Shown piece by piece: positions 14,707 to 17,299 of a DNA stretch of 32,000 nt; the stretch's first letter is position 1, and each line of letters starts with the position of its first letter. Where the stretch lies: the NCBI GenBank assembly GCA_030668875.1, contig DAOVER010000004.1, positions 73,507-105,506 on the forward strand, written 5' to 3'. Under the pieces are notes generated by a model, which saw nothing but the letters and a program-made list of their open reading frames with translations, had not been told where the DNA came from and did no database searches. Position numbers and translations under genes: made by a program. This DNA is from Candidatus Heimdallarchaeota archaeon. Lineage in GTDB: Archaea > Asgardarchaeota > Heimdallarchaeia > Heimdallarchaeales > Heimdallarchaeaceae.

Positions 14707-15996
14707 CTAACTATCGGTTTCAAAATTGAAAGCTTCTTTAACCATATCTTCCACATTATCAGCCTTTTTAATAATTCTAATTTGCCCCACTTCATCTAAT
14801 TCATATACAGCAGGACGAGGATATCCGAATTGTTCACTCATTGAAAGCGTATATGCTCCACAATTGAGAACCGTTATTTGATCTCCTTCATCAATTTGAT
14901 AGCTCACAGATTCATTTGAAATCACATCGACTGGGAGACATAGAGGACCCCCAATTCTGCAGTATGGGCCCTCCCCTTTATTTTGACCTGGAACTGCTAG
15001 GTAATGTGAATATCGCATTGGTATAAGTGAATTGGCTCCAATATCAATAAATGCCCACTTTCTTCCCCATGAGCTCTTTGTTCGTAAAACTTTAGCAACG
15101 GCAACAAAACTATCCTCCACCAAATATCTACCTGGTTCAAGAATAATTGTCATATCATCAACATTTTCAATACTTGTTGAAATCTGCTCAGCATATCGAT
15201 TTAGATCAAAACCATTTGAATCAAGCGTGCTTTTACTTGCAAGTCCACCTCCAAGGTTCAAATGTTCTATCTCGATCCCATGTTTATTCACTAGTTCCTT
15301 GATGTATTTATTCATAAAAACTAATAATTCTTCATAAAATGAATGAGAAATAAGATTGGTCCCAACATGAACATGAACACCAGTAGGTTCAAGATGAGGA
15401 CTTTTTTTAGCAAACTTGTAAAGTTTTATTGCTCTTTCGTAATCTATTCCTAATTTACTATTCTTCTTGATAAGCAATTTCTTTTCTGTTTCCTCACTTA
15501 ACAAAGGATGAATTCTAATTGTAATTTCTTGTTTCATCTCTTTTGCTTTAGCAATATTTTCTATGTTTTGAAGTTCATTCATAGATTCAATGTTCAAATA
15601 TTGAATCCCTTTTGTCATAGCTAATTCTAATTCTTGCGCTGTTTTTGCTGGTCCATTAAACACAATTTGCTTAAAATTGAATCCTGCTTTCTCCGCTAAT
15701 AACAACTCAAAAAGGGACATAGCTTCAGCATTCATGTTCAAAGATTTCGCGTGCTGAAGAACTCGACCTAAGTAATTTGCCTTGATTGCATATGAAATGT
15801 GTGATTTAGCAACATGTTTACTCAAAGCTGTTTTCAATTGATTATAATTGTGTTCAAAACGTTCAGGTAGATAAAGAAAGAACGGCGTAGCCATTTTTTC
15901 TGCAATATCTAAAGACGATTTCTTGTTAATGTGAAGAAGATTTTCCTCATACTTAAGATACGGATAATGTTTAATTTTATCTTCAATTTCCTTCAT
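14707..15996 (-). CDS. Fold-type III PLP decarboxylase (LysA/ornithine/DAP/arginine decarboxylase family), substrate uncertain
   Basis: YAIKANY (PLP Lys), FNGPAKT, NIES, HVHVGT, NLGGG, EPGRYLV, GPLCLPVD, GAYTLSMS. Confidence 0.9.
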   Translation of the reverse strand: MKEIEDKIKHYPYLKYEENLLHINKKSSLDIAEKMATPFFLYLPERFEHNYNQLKTALSKHVAKSHISYAIKANYLGRVLQHAKSLNMNAEAMSLFELLLAEKAGFNFKQIVFNGPAKTAQELELAMTKGIQYLNIESMNELQNIENIAKAKEMKQEITIRIHPLLSEETEKKLLIKKNSKLGIDYERAIKLYKFAKKSPHLEPTGVHVHVGTNLISHSFYEELLVFMNKYIKELVNKHGIEIEHLNLGGGLASKSTLDSNGFDLNRYAEQISTSIENVDDMTIILEPGRYLVEDSFVAVAKVLRTKSSWGRKWAFIDIGANSLIPMRYSHYLAVPGQNKGEGPYCRIGGPLCLPVDVISNESVSYQIDEGDQITVLNCGAYTLSMSEQFGYPRPAVYELDEVGQIRIIKKADNVEDMVKEAFNFETDS

Positions 15997-16076
15997 TTCA
16001 TCACACTGATTTTTTTTCGATACAAGGAGATATATGTTTTTATTATTTGTTCTAATTACTAATATCTTTTCTTTGA

Positions 16077-16115
16077 AATTGAAAAATTTTGCCTTCTAAT
16101 TGAAAAATTATTAAA
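16077..16115 (+). promoter_or_regulatory. Tandem 12-bp repeat AATTGAAAAATT (21-bp period); the second copy forms BRE+TATA for the bpsA-like gene
   Basis: Copies at 16077-16088 and 16098-16109. GAAAAA followed by TTATTAAA (16108-16115) lies about 24 nt before ATG 16139, consistent with a leaderless transcript. Confidence 0.55.
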
Positions 16116-16138
16116 GCTTTGATTATCTAGTCATACTG

Positions 16139-17299
16139 ATGAATGAATTAACCTTTCTTGAGCAACTAAGTGAAGTTACCAAAAATGTAGCAATAAAAGA
16201 GGGACTCGTTGGCATCTTACGTAACTTGGCGGTTATTTCTCGCTTTCCTGAAGAACCGATGCGTAAAGTCGCTCAAGAAAGCAATTTACCCGTTCCAATA
16301 TGTGTGGCCATTCGAAATGAGTTTGAGAAACTTGGTTGGGTATCAAGGGGAAAGAAAGGTGCTTTCCTCACACCATTAGGACAAGATGTTTTCAATTCTC
16401 ACGGTGGTTTTAATGAGAGACATGAATGCATCAAATGCAGTGGAACCGGTATAACTATTCCGTATTCAAAGTTTCAGAAAGAACTGGAAGCGATGAAAAG
16501 GTATGGTAATATGAGAGGTAAACCATTCACTCAATTAGATCAATCGTTCGCGACTCCTAGAACCAGTCTGGCAAGAATATTCTATATGATTCAAAATTAT
16601 GATCTTACTAGAAGAAACTTTGCCTTTTTGGGTGATAGTGATTTGACAAGTATTGCTTTAGCTATGTTTGCTAACAAATCATCTAGAATTGTAGTTTTTG
16701 ATGTGGATAAGCGACTAAAGGCGATTATAGAATCTGCAAATCAAGAAAATAGTGTTCAAATAGAATTCATTGAACATGATTTAAGAAACCCTATCCCTCC
16801 AGAATATCTAAAAAAGTTCGATTGTATTTCCACTGATCCACCATATACTCTACACGGGCTGAATTTATTTATCTCGCGTGGTCTAACCCTACTTTCAGAT
16901 AAACACAATGGAGTAGGATATCTTTCATTTGGTGTGAAGCCCTCAAACGAAATCTTAGAATTGGAGAAAAGCTTAATCCAGATGAATTGCGCGATAACTC
17001 ACATAGTTCCAAACTTCAATAAATACATTGGAGCTCAGAAATTGGGTGGTGTATCCAGTTTGTATAGATTCGAAATTATTCCCCCAGCTACACCATTGAT
17101 AAAGGATGTGTATAACTCCTCTCTTTACACAGGAGATATTAACCCAATAATTCGTACATATGAGTGTCTAAATTGTAAGTCCGATATTGATGTTGGGATT
17201 AATCAGTTATTTTCAACAATTGAAGAACTAAAAACTAAAGGGTGTCCTTATTGCAATCATGAGTTTTTTTCTAAAGTAAGCGAGAGAAAAATGGAATGA
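16139..17299 (+). CDS. bpsA: BpsA-family (branched-chain polyamine synthase-like) aminopropyltransferase with N-terminal HTH-like region and Zn ribbons
   Basis: QLDQSFATP, FLGDSDLTSIAL, VFDVDKRL, HDLRNPIP, TDPPYTLHGLNLFISRG. CIKC near the N-terminus; CLNC...CPYC at the C-terminus. Confidence 0.78.
   Translation: MNELTFLEQLSEVTKNVAIKEGLVGILRNLAVISRFPEEPMRKVAQESNLPVPICVAIRNEFEKLGWVSRGKKGAFLTPLGQDVFNSHGGFNERHECIKCSGTGITIPYSKFQKELEAMKRYGNMRGKPFTQLDQSFATPRTSLARIFYMIQNYDLTRRNFAFLGDSDLTSIALAMFANKSSRIVVFDVDKRLKAIIESANQENSVQIEFIEHDLRNPIPPEYLKKFDCISTDPPYTLHGLNLFISRGLTLLSDKHNGVGYLSFGVKPSNEILELEKSLIQMNCAITHIVPNFNKYIGAQKLGGVSSLYRFEIIPPATPLIKDVYNSSLYTGDINPIIRTYECLNCKSDIDVGINQLFSTIEELKTKGCPYCNHEFFSKVSERKME

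What the first reader, a model, noticed from the sequence alone, without database searches (positions are those of the whole stretch)
14707..17299. Head-to-head decarboxylase and BpsA-like pair: possible SAM-direct (carboxy-aminopropyl then decarboxylate) route
Seen: the two genes lead the two divergent operons, both carry non-canonical active-site motifs, and no SAM decarboxylase or spermidine synthase is in the window. Known: BpsA uses decarboxylated SAM; other SAM enzymes transfer 3-amino-3-carboxypropyl directly; carboxy(nor)spermidine decarboxylases are fold-III PLP enzymes that decarboxylate carboxy-polyamines. Inference: the BpsA-like protein may transfer aminocarboxypropyl from SAM and its neighbour remove the carboxyl, bypassing dcSAM. 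Alternatively the decarboxylase simply supplies the diamine.
Basis: inference. Interest (0 to 1): 0.68.

Follow-up and report, generated by a model that had tools for sequence, protein, structure and literature searches.

The report
Aminopropylation pair without SAM decarboxylase
In one family of Asgard archaea that has neither of the usual spermidine-making enzymes, a BpsA-like transferase that has lost a residue needed to hold decarboxylated SAM always sits head-to-head with a remodelled lysine-pathway decarboxylase, so the two probably add aminopropyl groups by an untested route that starts directly from SAM.

Summary
A 429-aa alanine-racemase-fold PLP decarboxylase (14707-15996, -) and a 386-aa BpsA_C protein (16139-17299, +) diverge from a 142-bp spacer. 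Both carry altered specificity motifs.

The window comes from a Heimdallarchaeaceae genome (92% complete).
- The pair is head-to-head in all 20 family loci examined. The flanking glycan genes are not conserved.
- In the 30 family genomes searched, two of them closed, there was no AdoMetDC, no DapF and no LysA above cut-off. No spermidine synthase was found in the 21 searched for it. Deoxyhypusine synthase is in 28 of 30.
- Elsewhere in Asgard archaea, BpsA_C genes are fused or adjacent to AdoMetDC, or at least share a genome with it. All of those examined keep GDDD.
- The decarboxylase-linked form has GDSD (GDGD in one outlier lineage). It has lost the Asp that salt-bridges the amine of dcSAM.
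- The decarboxylase lacks the DAP-binding Arg and Glu of LysA. It is 30% identical to the MccE N-domain.

Best reading (0.45): aminocarboxypropyl transfer from SAM, then decarboxylation, as in MccD/MccE. Reverse order, a PLP-dependent SAM decarboxylase: 0.2. The acceptor is unknown; agmatine or putrescine is my guess. All evidence is comparative, and the motif correlation rests on about one evolutionary event.

Earlier scan notes recorded the BpsA-AdoMetDC fusions on other DNA. The decarboxylase-paired form was noted only on this genome.

The parts
14707..15996 (-). Alanine-racemase-fold (fold III) PLP decarboxylase derived from the LysA group. K72 is the PLP lysine. The clade-invariant motifs are HxHVGTN, EPGR, GANxLIP-MRY, GGPLCLPVD and GAYTxSMSEQFGY.
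   Evidence: Pfam and NCBIfam; PDB alignments; orthologue alignment; 30% identity to the MccE N-domain.
16139..17299 (+). BpsA_C-family class-I SAM-fold transferase. It has an N-terminal helical/winged-helix domain, GDSD (165-168) in place of GDDD, DPPY (233-236), and a C-terminal CxxC...CxxC zinc-ribbon-like tail (C343, C346, C369, C372).
   Evidence: Pfam; alignment to 5xnc and 2qm3; motif survey; AlphaFold model with pLDDT 88 whose best structural matches are the BpsA structures.
15997..16138 (.). 142-bp AT-rich spacer between the two divergent start codons; presumed shared promoter region (inferred, not tested).
   Evidence: Sequence. The divergent arrangement is kept in all family loci.
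14159..14683 (-). CxxCxxCC (PF03692, YkgJ-like) cysteine-cluster protein, 23 nt downstream of the decarboxylase. It is a conserved third neighbour within the family; its role is unknown.
   Evidence: Pfam 38.8 bits; present next to the decarboxylase in all 9 extended loci; absent near the pair in the outlier genome G025; no structural match.
17331..18005 (+). MBL-fold hydrolase downstream of the BpsA-like gene. It is a frequent but not constant neighbour.
   Evidence: Pfam; present in 4 of 9 extended loci.

Best explanation
The two genes form a two-enzyme aminopropylation module that replaces the usual AdoMetDC-plus-aminopropyltransferase pair in Heimdallarchaeaceae.

Most likely order of steps:
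1. The BpsA-like enzyme binds SAM itself. Ser167 replaces the Asp that pairs with the amine of dcSAM, which removes a negative charge next to where SAM's carboxylate would sit.
2. It transfers the 3-amino-3-carboxypropyl group to an amine acceptor and releases methylthioadenosine.
3. The neighbouring PLP decarboxylase removes the carboxyl and leaves an aminopropyl group.

The net reaction equals that of AdoMetDC plus an aminopropyltransferase. The likeliest acceptor is agmatine or putrescine. That would give carboxyaminopropylagmatine or carboxyspermidine, and then aminopropylagmatine or spermidine, which would serve deoxyhypusine synthase among other uses.

What is shown: gene content, synteny and motifs. 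What is inferred: the donor, the order of steps, the acceptor and the product.
For: 1. The head-to-head pair is present in all 20 family loci examined. An orthologous pair lies 3.6 kb apart in one outlier lineage, G025. The surrounding glycan genes are missing around the pair in two genera. One of them, the 589-aa gene, was not found in five genomes that keep the pair, including the two closed ones. The ArnD-like gene was not found in those two closed genomes or in G086.

tblastn with Asgard AdoMetDCs finds nothing in this genome. No true SpeE is present.

3. In other Asgard families, BpsA_C genes are fused to AdoMet_dc, adjacent to it or divergent from it (coordinates). The decarboxylase therefore sits where the dcSAM supplier sits elsewhere.

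4. All 26 examined homologues from AdoMetDC-holding genomes keep GDDD. The decarboxylase-linked form is GDSD in 20 of 20 loci and GDGD in G025. In Tk-BpsA, D159 and D160 salt-bridge the dcSAM amine and are essential (PMC12979288).

5. The decarboxylase is not LysA:
- It scores below the cut-off.
- The LysA Arg and Glu are lost, within clade-invariant new motifs.
- DapA was not found in the five genomes searched (0/5), and DapF and LysX are missing from the family.
- G025 keeps a true LysA beside the orthologue.

6. There is a demand for spermidine and precursors for it: DHS in 28 of 30 genomes, pyruvoyl or SpeA-like ArgDC, and two arginase-family genes.

7. The aspartate-semialdehyde route is not available. 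No NspC was found in 200 Asgard genomes. The only saccharopine-dehydrogenase homologue is of the PH1688 type: 246 bits, against 38 bits to CASDH.

8. There is a precedent. MccD transfers aminocarboxypropyl from SAM and the alanine-racemase-fold N-domain of MccE decarboxylates it (PMC10491745, PMC7857480). The MccE N-domain is 30% identical to this decarboxylase (E 4e-29). The two share a hydrophobic residue after the catalytic Cys and a shortened specificity helix with an aligned Arg.
Against: - There is no biochemical or metabolite evidence.
- All non-GDDD sequences fall in one clade, so the motif/AdoMetDC correlation amounts to roughly one evolutionary event.
- An invariant Arg (R328) on the specificity helix is an odd partner for a polycationic tail. 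It could instead bind an anionic or nucleoside moiety.
- The published view is that decarboxylases of the DAPDC clade are usually not polyamine enzymes (PMC7857480).
- From my own knowledge, haloarchaea keep DHS without spermidine, so DHS does not prove a need for spermidine.
- In genera g1 and g2 the pair is operonic with glycosyltransferases, so a glycan or lipid acceptor there is not excluded.
- The DPPY motif is also typical of N-methyltransferases.
- The search for eukaryote-type AdoMetDC (PF01536) had no positive control.
Confidence: 0.45

Rival explanations
1. Reverse order. The LysA-derived enzyme is a PLP-dependent SAM decarboxylase that makes dcSAM, and the BpsA-like enzyme is an ordinary dcSAM-dependent aminopropyltransferase. 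This would be a non-homologous displacement of pyruvoyl AdoMetDC.
For: The decarboxylase occupies the place of AdoMetDC beside BpsA_C genes. All family genomes lack AdoMetDC. The same ambiguity is still open for MccE/MccD (PMC10491745). The invariant R328 and E388 in the pocket could bind an adenosine moiety.
Against: The transferase has lost the Asp (Tk D159) reported as essential for positioning the dcSAM amine. Every AdoMetDC-linked homologue examined keeps it. No PLP-dependent SAM decarboxylase turned up in the paper searches run here.
Confidence: 0.2
2. The genes are coupled, but not for aminopropylation. The decarboxylase makes an amine (from Orn, Lys or another amino acid). The BpsA-like enzyme then methylates it, or adds an aminocarboxypropyl group that is kept. 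Alternatively the acceptor is a glycan or lipid of the neighbouring cluster.
For: DPPY is a classic N-methyltransferase motif, and there is a weak N6-adenineMlase hit. In genera g1 and g2 both genes are operonic with GT2/GT4/ArnD-like genes.
Against: DPPY is shared with the AdoMetDC-fused homologues, so it does not signal methyl transfer. The glycan genes are absent around the pair in two genera. The 589-aa gene was not found in five pair-holding genomes, and the ArnD-like gene was not found in G026, G074 or G086. The pocket lacks the Asp residues that ODC and L/ODC use for the omega-amine, having C-L rather than C-D.
Confidence: 0.15
3. The adjacency is conserved, but the two enzymes work in unrelated pathways.
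For: Divergent pairs can persist through shared regulation alone. No direct functional evidence exists.
Against: The two genes co-occur exactly and are co-located across five genera plus a distant lineage, while neighbours change. Their distribution is complementary to AdoMetDC.
Confidence: 0.1
4. The decarboxylase is the organism's ordinary diaminopimelate decarboxylase (LysA), or a carboxyspermidine decarboxylase working with an aspartate-semialdehyde-dependent dehydrogenase encoded elsewhere.
For: It is the only lysA homologue in the genome, and LysA structures are its best PDB hits. One saccharopine-dehydrogenase-family gene exists.
Against: It scores below the LysA cut-off throughout the family. 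The DAP-binding Arg and Glu are lost. DapA was found in 0 of 5 genomes, DapF in 0 of 30 and LysX in 0 of 30. G025 has a true LysA as well. The dehydrogenase is of the PH1688 type, scoring 19 bits on the carboxynorspermidine synthase model. No NspC was found in 200 Asgard genomes.
Confidence: 0.05

Closest known systems
MccD / MccE N-terminal domain (aminopropylation of microcin C, E. coli)
   Same: A class-I SAM-fold transferase is encoded next to an alanine-racemase-fold PLP decarboxylase of the DAPDC-related clade. The accepted route is aminocarboxypropyl transfer from SAM followed by decarboxylation, with the reverse order still open. The decarboxylases are homologous: 30% identity, E 4e-29.
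   Different: The transferases show no detectable pairwise (BLASTP) similarity beyond the general fold. MccE carries a GNAT domain, and its acceptor is a peptidyl-nucleotide phosphoramidate in an antibiotic cluster. Here the pair is a chromosomal, lineage-wide core feature with no ThiF/MccB-type partner that travels with the pair, and the acceptor is probably a small amine.
BpsA, N4-bis(aminopropyl)spermidine synthase (EC 2.5.1.128; T. kodakarensis 5xnc, T. thermophilus 6j27)
   Same: The two-domain fold and the BpsA_C domain are shared. The conserved D166, D168 and D233 match Tk D158, D160 and D225.
   Different: Tk D159 is Ser here. Tk E259 aligns with Pro. DPPE is DPPY. The acidic C-terminal carrier tail is replaced by a Cys4 zinc-ribbon-like tail. 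There is no dcSAM source in the genome, and the host is not a hyperthermophile lineage.
Asgard BpsA_C-AdoMetDC fusions and operons (uncharacterised)
   Same: These are the closest sequence relatives outside the family (30-36% identity), with the same DPPY motif. Like this family, the lineages that hold the fusions or the adjacent AdoMetDC pair mostly lack SpeE (0/10, 2/40 and 0/3 genomes).
   Different: They keep GDDD and carry or adjoin a pyruvoyl AdoMetDC. The form here has GDSD and a PLP decarboxylase instead.
Carboxyspermidine / carboxyaminopropylagmatine pathways (CASDH-CASDC, CAPADH-CAPADC)
   Same: A carboxy-aminopropyl intermediate is decarboxylated by an alanine-racemase-fold PLP enzyme, bypassing dcSAM.
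   Different: Those pathways build the intermediate from aspartate semialdehyde with a dehydrogenase. No such dehydrogenase or NspC is found here. The proposed donor here is SAM.
Diaminopimelate decarboxylase LysA
   Same: Best family and PDB hits. The PLP-binding Lys, GGG, EPGR, catalytic Cys and GAY motifs are conserved.
   Different: See the membership test: the score is below cut-off, the specificity residues are lost, and no DAP pathway is present.

Membership tests
BpsA (branched-chain polyamine synthase, EC 2.5.1.128) | BpsA_C domain and two-domain BpsA fold | tested here: met
   PF01861 at 166.9 bits; phmmer to 2qm3 and 5xnc at E 1e-38 and 8e-37; Foldseek top hits are the BpsA structures at E 1e-23.
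BpsA (branched-chain polyamine synthase, EC 2.5.1.128) | GDDD motif with Asp159 and Asp160 holding the dcSAM aminopropyl amine | tested here: not met
   The motif is GDSD: S167 aligns with Tk D159. It is invariant in the orthologues. The role of D159 is taken from PMC12979288.
BpsA (branched-chain polyamine synthase, EC 2.5.1.128) | Acidic C-terminal cluster that carries the aminopropyl group (ping-pong mechanism) | tested here: not met
   The C-terminus (residues 340-386) is a CxxC...CxxC segment with no Glu/Asp cluster. C343, C369 and C372 are invariant and C346 nearly so. The alignment to Tk-BpsA ends at residue 298.
BpsA (branched-chain polyamine synthase, EC 2.5.1.128) | dcSAM supply (AdoMetDC) in the same genome | tested here: not met
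   PF02675 found in 0 of 1 (own genome) and 0 of 30 (family); tblastn finds nothing; PF01536 found in 0 of 5, but the control was silent.
Diaminopimelate decarboxylase (LysA, TIGR01048) | Score at or above the curated equivalog cut-off | tested here: not met
   264.5 bits against a cut-off of 297.9. No family member passes.
Diaminopimelate decarboxylase (LysA, TIGR01048) | Residues that bind the distal centre of DAP: Arg of the RPxxY helix and Glu of CESGD | tested here: not met
   The helix is GANxLIP-MRY with a two-residue deletion, and the loop is C-L-P-V-D. True Asgard LysAs keep RPxxY and CE(S/N)xD.
Diaminopimelate decarboxylase (LysA, TIGR01048) | DAP pathway upstream (DapA, DapF) | tested here: not met
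   DapA: 0 of 5 over cut-off. DapF: 0 of 30.
MccD/MccE-type two-step aminopropylation | SAM-fold transferase encoded beside an alanine-racemase-fold decarboxylase homologous to the MccE N-domain | tested here: met
   Adjacency. 30% identity and E 4e-29 to MccE from an mcc-type operon. The tree places the clade apart from true LysAs and on MccE's side, with weak support of 92 and a long branch.
MccD/MccE-type two-step aminopropylation | Transferase homologous to MccD | tested here: not met
   BLASTP of P0002 against MccD gives no significant alignment.
MccD/MccE-type two-step aminopropylation | Aminocarboxypropylated intermediate formed from SAM and then decarboxylated | not testable with these tools
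   Needs enzyme assays with LC-MS.
Carboxy(nor)spermidine decarboxylase (NspC, TIGR01047) | Family score, and a CASDH/CANSDH partner in the genome | tested here: not met
   51.7 bits against a cut-off of 409. No NspC in 200 Asgard genomes. The only Sacchrp_dh gene is of the PH1688 type and scores 19 bits on NF043000.

The most novel reading that the evidence does not exclude
Heimdallarchaeaceae make their aminopropylated polyamine (spermidine or aminopropylagmatine) by a third, undescribed route. Either a BpsA-family enzyme alkylates the amine directly with the aminocarboxypropyl group of SAM and a LysA-derived PLP enzyme decarboxylates the product, or that PLP enzyme is the first non-pyruvoyl SAM decarboxylase. 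In both cases a lineage close to the eukaryotic stem has replaced AdoMetDC, an enzyme thought universal to SAM-based polyamine synthesis.
Probability: 0.6. Interest if true: 0.8.

Novelty: new variant of a known kind. Interest (0 to 1): 0.72.

Why it matters
As the polyamine papers read here describe them, the known routes to spermidine use either pyruvoyl AdoMetDC plus an aminopropyltransferase, or aspartate semialdehyde plus a dehydrogenase and a decarboxylase. A SAM-direct, two-enzyme route in primary metabolism would be a third solution. The alternative, a PLP-dependent SAM decarboxylase, would be equally new.

The finding would also:
- explain how a whole Asgard family with deoxyhypusine synthase manages without speD and speE;
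- give a natural experiment on what makes a class-I SAM enzyme choose dcSAM rather than SAM (one Asp-to-Ser change);
- correct the automatic names 'diaminopimelate decarboxylase' and 'bis-aminopropyl spermidine synthase' in these genomes.

It can be tested directly with two recombinant proteins and LC-MS.

Tried and rejected
Synteny was obtained through the genome search and the fetch from genomes instead.
- LysA function: rejected.
- Aspartate-semialdehyde (CASDH/CASDC) route: rejected.
- A functional tie to the glycosyltransferase/exosortase cluster as the general explanation: rejected. The cluster is missing around the pair in genera g3 and g4, and two of its genes are not found in g3/g4 genomes. 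A glycan acceptor in g1 and g2 is not excluded.
- The weak Spermine_synth hits (20 bits) are ordinary GxGxG methyltransferases.
- Eukaryote-type AdoMetDC (PF01536) gave no hit, but its control was silent, so this negative is weak.
No NspC sequence was obtainable, and the papers read do not state it.
- The CxxCxxCC neighbour gave a model of only pLDDT 71, no structural match and no informative literature.
- The careful tree for BpsA_C did not finish in time. Only quick trees with SH-aLRT support are reported.
- No residue-level pocket modelling or ligand docking was possible with these tools.
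Full report
WHAT IS THERE

The window holds two divergent genes separated by a 142-bp AT-rich spacer.
- 14707-15996 (-), 429 aa, is an alanine-racemase-fold (fold III) PLP decarboxylase. Its best family is LysA, at 264.5 bits, under the 297.9-bit cut-off. nspC scores only 51.7 bits.
- 16139-17299 (+), 386 aa, carries a BpsA_C domain at 166.9 bits. It aligns over about 260 residues with the solved BpsA structures.
- An AlphaFold model of the second protein (pLDDT 88) finds those same structures first.

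Each gene heads a compact, co-directional string.
- Leftward: decarboxylase, CxxCxxCC protein, GT2, GT4, ArnD-like deacetylase, GT4.
- Rightward: BpsA-like, MBL hydrolase, a 589-aa protein without family, GT4.
- An exosortase-like gene lies at 8668-9864.
- Housekeeping genes lie on both sides: MutS/MutL, ThiF, MetRS, RIO kinase, aIF1A, aIF2-beta and NMD3.

WHOSE GENOME

Homologues of the BpsA-like protein are almost all from Heimdall-type Asgard archaea. A pattern scan of 185,579 species found the decarboxylase's diagnostic peptides only in MAGs labelled Heimdallarchaeota or nearby. Among them are the closed genomes of Ca. Heimdallarchaeum aukensis and Ca. H. endolithica. The window's genome has 3.23 Mb in 99 contigs and is 92% complete.

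THE PAIR IS THE CONSERVED UNIT

In all 20 family genomes that gave a locus, the decarboxylase lies head-to-head with the BpsA-like gene. Identities are 56-63% and 50-53% respectively, apart from one 88%-identical close relative.

Extended loci show what travels with the pair.
- The CxxCxxCC gene always follows the decarboxylase.
- The MBL gene is there in 4 of 9 loci.
- The glycosyltransferase/exosortase genes flank the pair only in genera g1 and g2. They are missing around it in g4 and in the two closed g3 genomes.
- Homologues of the 589-aa protein were found in none of five genomes that keep the pair (g3, g4, g60 and G025). The ArnD-like gene was not found in the g3 and g4 genomes.

The glycan cluster is thus a neighbour, not a necessary partner. 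In g1 and g2 the operon structure still leaves a link possible.

THE METABOLIC GAP

Family-wide searches gave the following.
- AdoMet_dc (PF02675): 0 of 30 genomes.
- tblastn with three Asgard AdoMetDC sequences against this genome: nothing.
- Eukaryote-type AdoMetDC: 0 of 5, but the control was silent.
- Spermine_synth: only sub-threshold or marginal hits, which are plain GxGxG methyltransferases in this genome.
- Deoxyhypusine synthase: 28 of 30.
- A pyruvoyl ArgDC in g1 and g2, or 600-aa proteins with a fold-III decarboxylase domain (probably SpeA-type ArgDC; not confirmed) in g3, g4 and g60, plus arginase-family genes (two in g1 and g2, one in g3).
- NspC: none in 200 Asgard genomes.
- The single saccharopine-dehydrogenase homologue is of the P. 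horikoshii PH1688 type: 246 bits, against 38 bits to a solved carboxyspermidine dehydrogenase and 19 bits to the carboxynorspermidine synthase model.

The family can probably make agmatine and putrescine and has an enzyme that normally consumes spermidine. It lacks both known ways of adding the aminopropyl group.

WHAT SITS BESIDE BpsA_C GENES ELSEWHERE

I compared the coordinates of BpsA_C hits and AdoMet_dc hits in the same 200 Asgard genomes.
- In families f5 and f13, both domains lie in one 460-500-aa frame, a fusion.
- In f6, the AdoMetDC gene is immediately adjacent.
- In f20, it is adjacent, divergently in two of the genomes. In f22, AdoMetDC, SpeE and BpsA form an operon-like run.
- Families f5, f6 and f13 mostly lack SpeE, so there the BpsA-like enzyme is probably the only aminopropyltransferase.

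Earlier notes of this scan recorded the same fusions on other DNA. I reached them independently from the coordinates. In the window's family, the PLP decarboxylase stands where the dcSAM supplier stands in its relatives.

THE CORRELATED MOTIF CHANGE

According to the 2026 review of branched-chain polyamines, the GDDD motif of Tk-BpsA (G157-D160) is indispensable. D159 and D160 salt-bridge the aminopropyl amine of dcSAM (PMC12979288).

I read the motif in 57 Asgard sequences.
- All 26 from genomes that hold AdoMetDC have GDDD.
- All 20 decarboxylase-linked family sequences have GDSD.
- The outlier G025 has GDGD. It lacks AdoMetDC and has a 40%-identical decarboxylase orthologue 3.6 kb from its BpsA-like gene, with two Kelch-repeat genes between them.
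- A short paralogue (about 288 aa), found in the same order without either decarboxylase, has GD(M/F/A)D and EPPx.

Removing the negative charge next to the alpha-carbon of the donor is what one would expect if the donor still carries its carboxylate. That is inference.

One caveat is important. In a quick tree, all non-GDDD sequences form a single clade (SH-aLRT 96). The correlation therefore reflects about one evolutionary transition, not many independent ones.

Further differences from Tk-BpsA:
- DPPE becomes DPPY, which the fused homologues share.
- Tk E259 aligns with Pro.
- The acidic C-terminal carrier tail is replaced by a conserved Cys4 segment.

THE DECARBOXYLASE IS NOT LysA

- No family member reaches the LysA cut-off.
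- Alignments with four solved LysAs and with true Asgard LysAs show that the catalytic scaffold is kept: K72, HxH, GGG, EPGR, Cys353 and GAY.
- The two specificity elements named in the literature, the Cys loop and the 3-10 specificity helix (PMC7857480), are rebuilt. C-E-S-G-D becomes an invariant C-L-P-V-D. N-D-x-x-R-P-x-x-Y becomes A-N-x-L-I-P-M-R-Y with a two-residue deletion. S-S-N-Y-N becomes S-E-Q-F-G.
- DapA was not found in five genomes, DapF in none of 30, and LysX in none above cut-off. There is then no meso-DAP to act on, and the family may be auxotrophic for lysine.
- G025 carries a canonical LysA as well as the orthologue.

A KNOWN PRECEDENT FOR THE CHEMISTRY

In microcin C maturation, the SAM-dependent MccD transfers the 3-amino-3-carboxypropyl group. 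The alanine-racemase-fold N-domain of MccE, which belongs to the DAPDC-related clade, then decarboxylates it to aminopropyl. The reverse order has not been fully excluded (PMC10491745, PMC7857480).

I fetched mcc-type operons from plasmids.
- The MccE N-domain is 30% identical to the window's decarboxylase (E 4e-29).
- The two share a hydrophobic residue after the catalytic Cys, a short specificity helix with an aligned Arg, HxHVG(S/T)N and EPGRxLVED.
- MccD shows no similarity to the BpsA-like protein.
- In a quick tree, the Heimdall clade separates from true LysAs, SbnH and the exosortase-A-associated decarboxylase. It falls on the side of MccE. Support is modest (92) and MccE sits on a long branch.

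MOST LIKELY MECHANISM AND ITS RIVALS

I judge it about 65% likely that the pair is an AdoMetDC-independent aminopropylation module.
- SAM-direct order (aminocarboxypropyl transfer, then decarboxylation): 0.45. It is favoured by the lost dcSAM-binding Asp.
- Reverse order (a PLP-dependent SAM decarboxylase): 0.2. It fits the positional replacement equally well. The invariant Arg328 and Glu388 of the pocket could suit an adenosyl substrate.
- Coupled but different chemistry, such as amine supply plus methylation, a retained carboxypropyl group, or a glycan acceptor in g1 and g2: 0.15.
- Unrelated functions: 0.1.
- LysA or an aspartate-semialdehyde-dependent route: about 0.05 together.

The acceptor is not known. 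Agmatine or putrescine is my inference from the gene content.

LIMITS

- Everything here is comparative. No assay, metabolite or expression data exist.
- Most genomes are MAGs, though two closed genomes agree.
- The trees are quick searches.
- The role of the always-linked CxxCxxCC protein is unexplained.
- The recalled similarity of C-L to carboxynorspermidine decarboxylases could not be verified.

VERDICT

The feature is real, lineage-wide and, as far as the held literature shows, undescribed. It is a new variant of a known kind of system: two-step aminopropylation as in MccD/MccE. Here it is built from a BpsA-family transferase and a LysA-derived decarboxylase, and it probably serves primary polyamine metabolism in an Asgard family.

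Noticed in passing
L032-L035, L066-L068 (e.g. L034:1474-2895): In Asgard families f5 and f13, the BpsA_C domain and an AdoMet_dc domain lie in one 460-500-aa frame. These genomes mostly lack SpeE. Earlier scan notes report the same fusion on other DNA.
   Followed up: partly
L027:2681-3079 (-): The AdoMetDC homologue adjacent to the f6 BpsA-like gene has E-T-H where canonical class 1b enzymes have the self-cleaving E-S-H. The f13 fusion has T-S-H. Pyruvoyl formation may therefore be unusual or absent in f6.
   Followed up: no
L005:1432-2313 (+) = G000:C88: A second, short BpsA_C paralogue (about 290 aa; GDMD, EPPL, C-terminal Cys4) is present in almost every family genome and in sister families that have neither decarboxylase. 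It lies next to a small zinc-ribbon gene and a gene with a Lys-rich repeat tail.
   Followed up: partly
whole genome and family (no window coordinates): DapF and LysX above cut-off were not found in any of 30 family genomes, and DapA was not found in the five searched, including two closed genomes. The family may be unable to make lysine.
   Followed up: partly
window 8668-13167 and 18014-20926: The exosortase-like gene, the GT4/ArnD-like/GT4/GT2 block and the 589-aa/GT4 block flank the pair on both sides in genera g1 and g2 (the ArnD-like gene also lies near the decarboxylase in g60). They are absent around the pair in g3 and g4, so two gains or two losses took place around one fixed core.
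   Followed up: partly
window 14159-14683 (-): The CxxCxxCC (PF03692) protein has invariant C14, C18, C22, C23, C69, C78, C88 and C114. It is always downstream of the decarboxylase in the family. It has no solved structural relative and no functional literature.
   Followed up: partly
L096:1465-2610 (-) = G000:C22: A close homologue (246 bits) of P. horikoshii PH1688 (PDB 3abi), which I recall as an L-lysine 6-dehydrogenase, lies next to a GFO/IDH/MocA oxidoreductase.
   Followed up: no
L065:5873-8104 (-): In the outlier genome G025, two Kelch-repeat/TSP3/laminin-G proteins are inserted between the BpsA-like gene and the decarboxylase orthologue.
   Followed up: no
window 11-3732 (+): Bacterial-type MutS (domains III-V) and MutL genes stand in tandem at the start of this archaeal window.
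   Followed up: no
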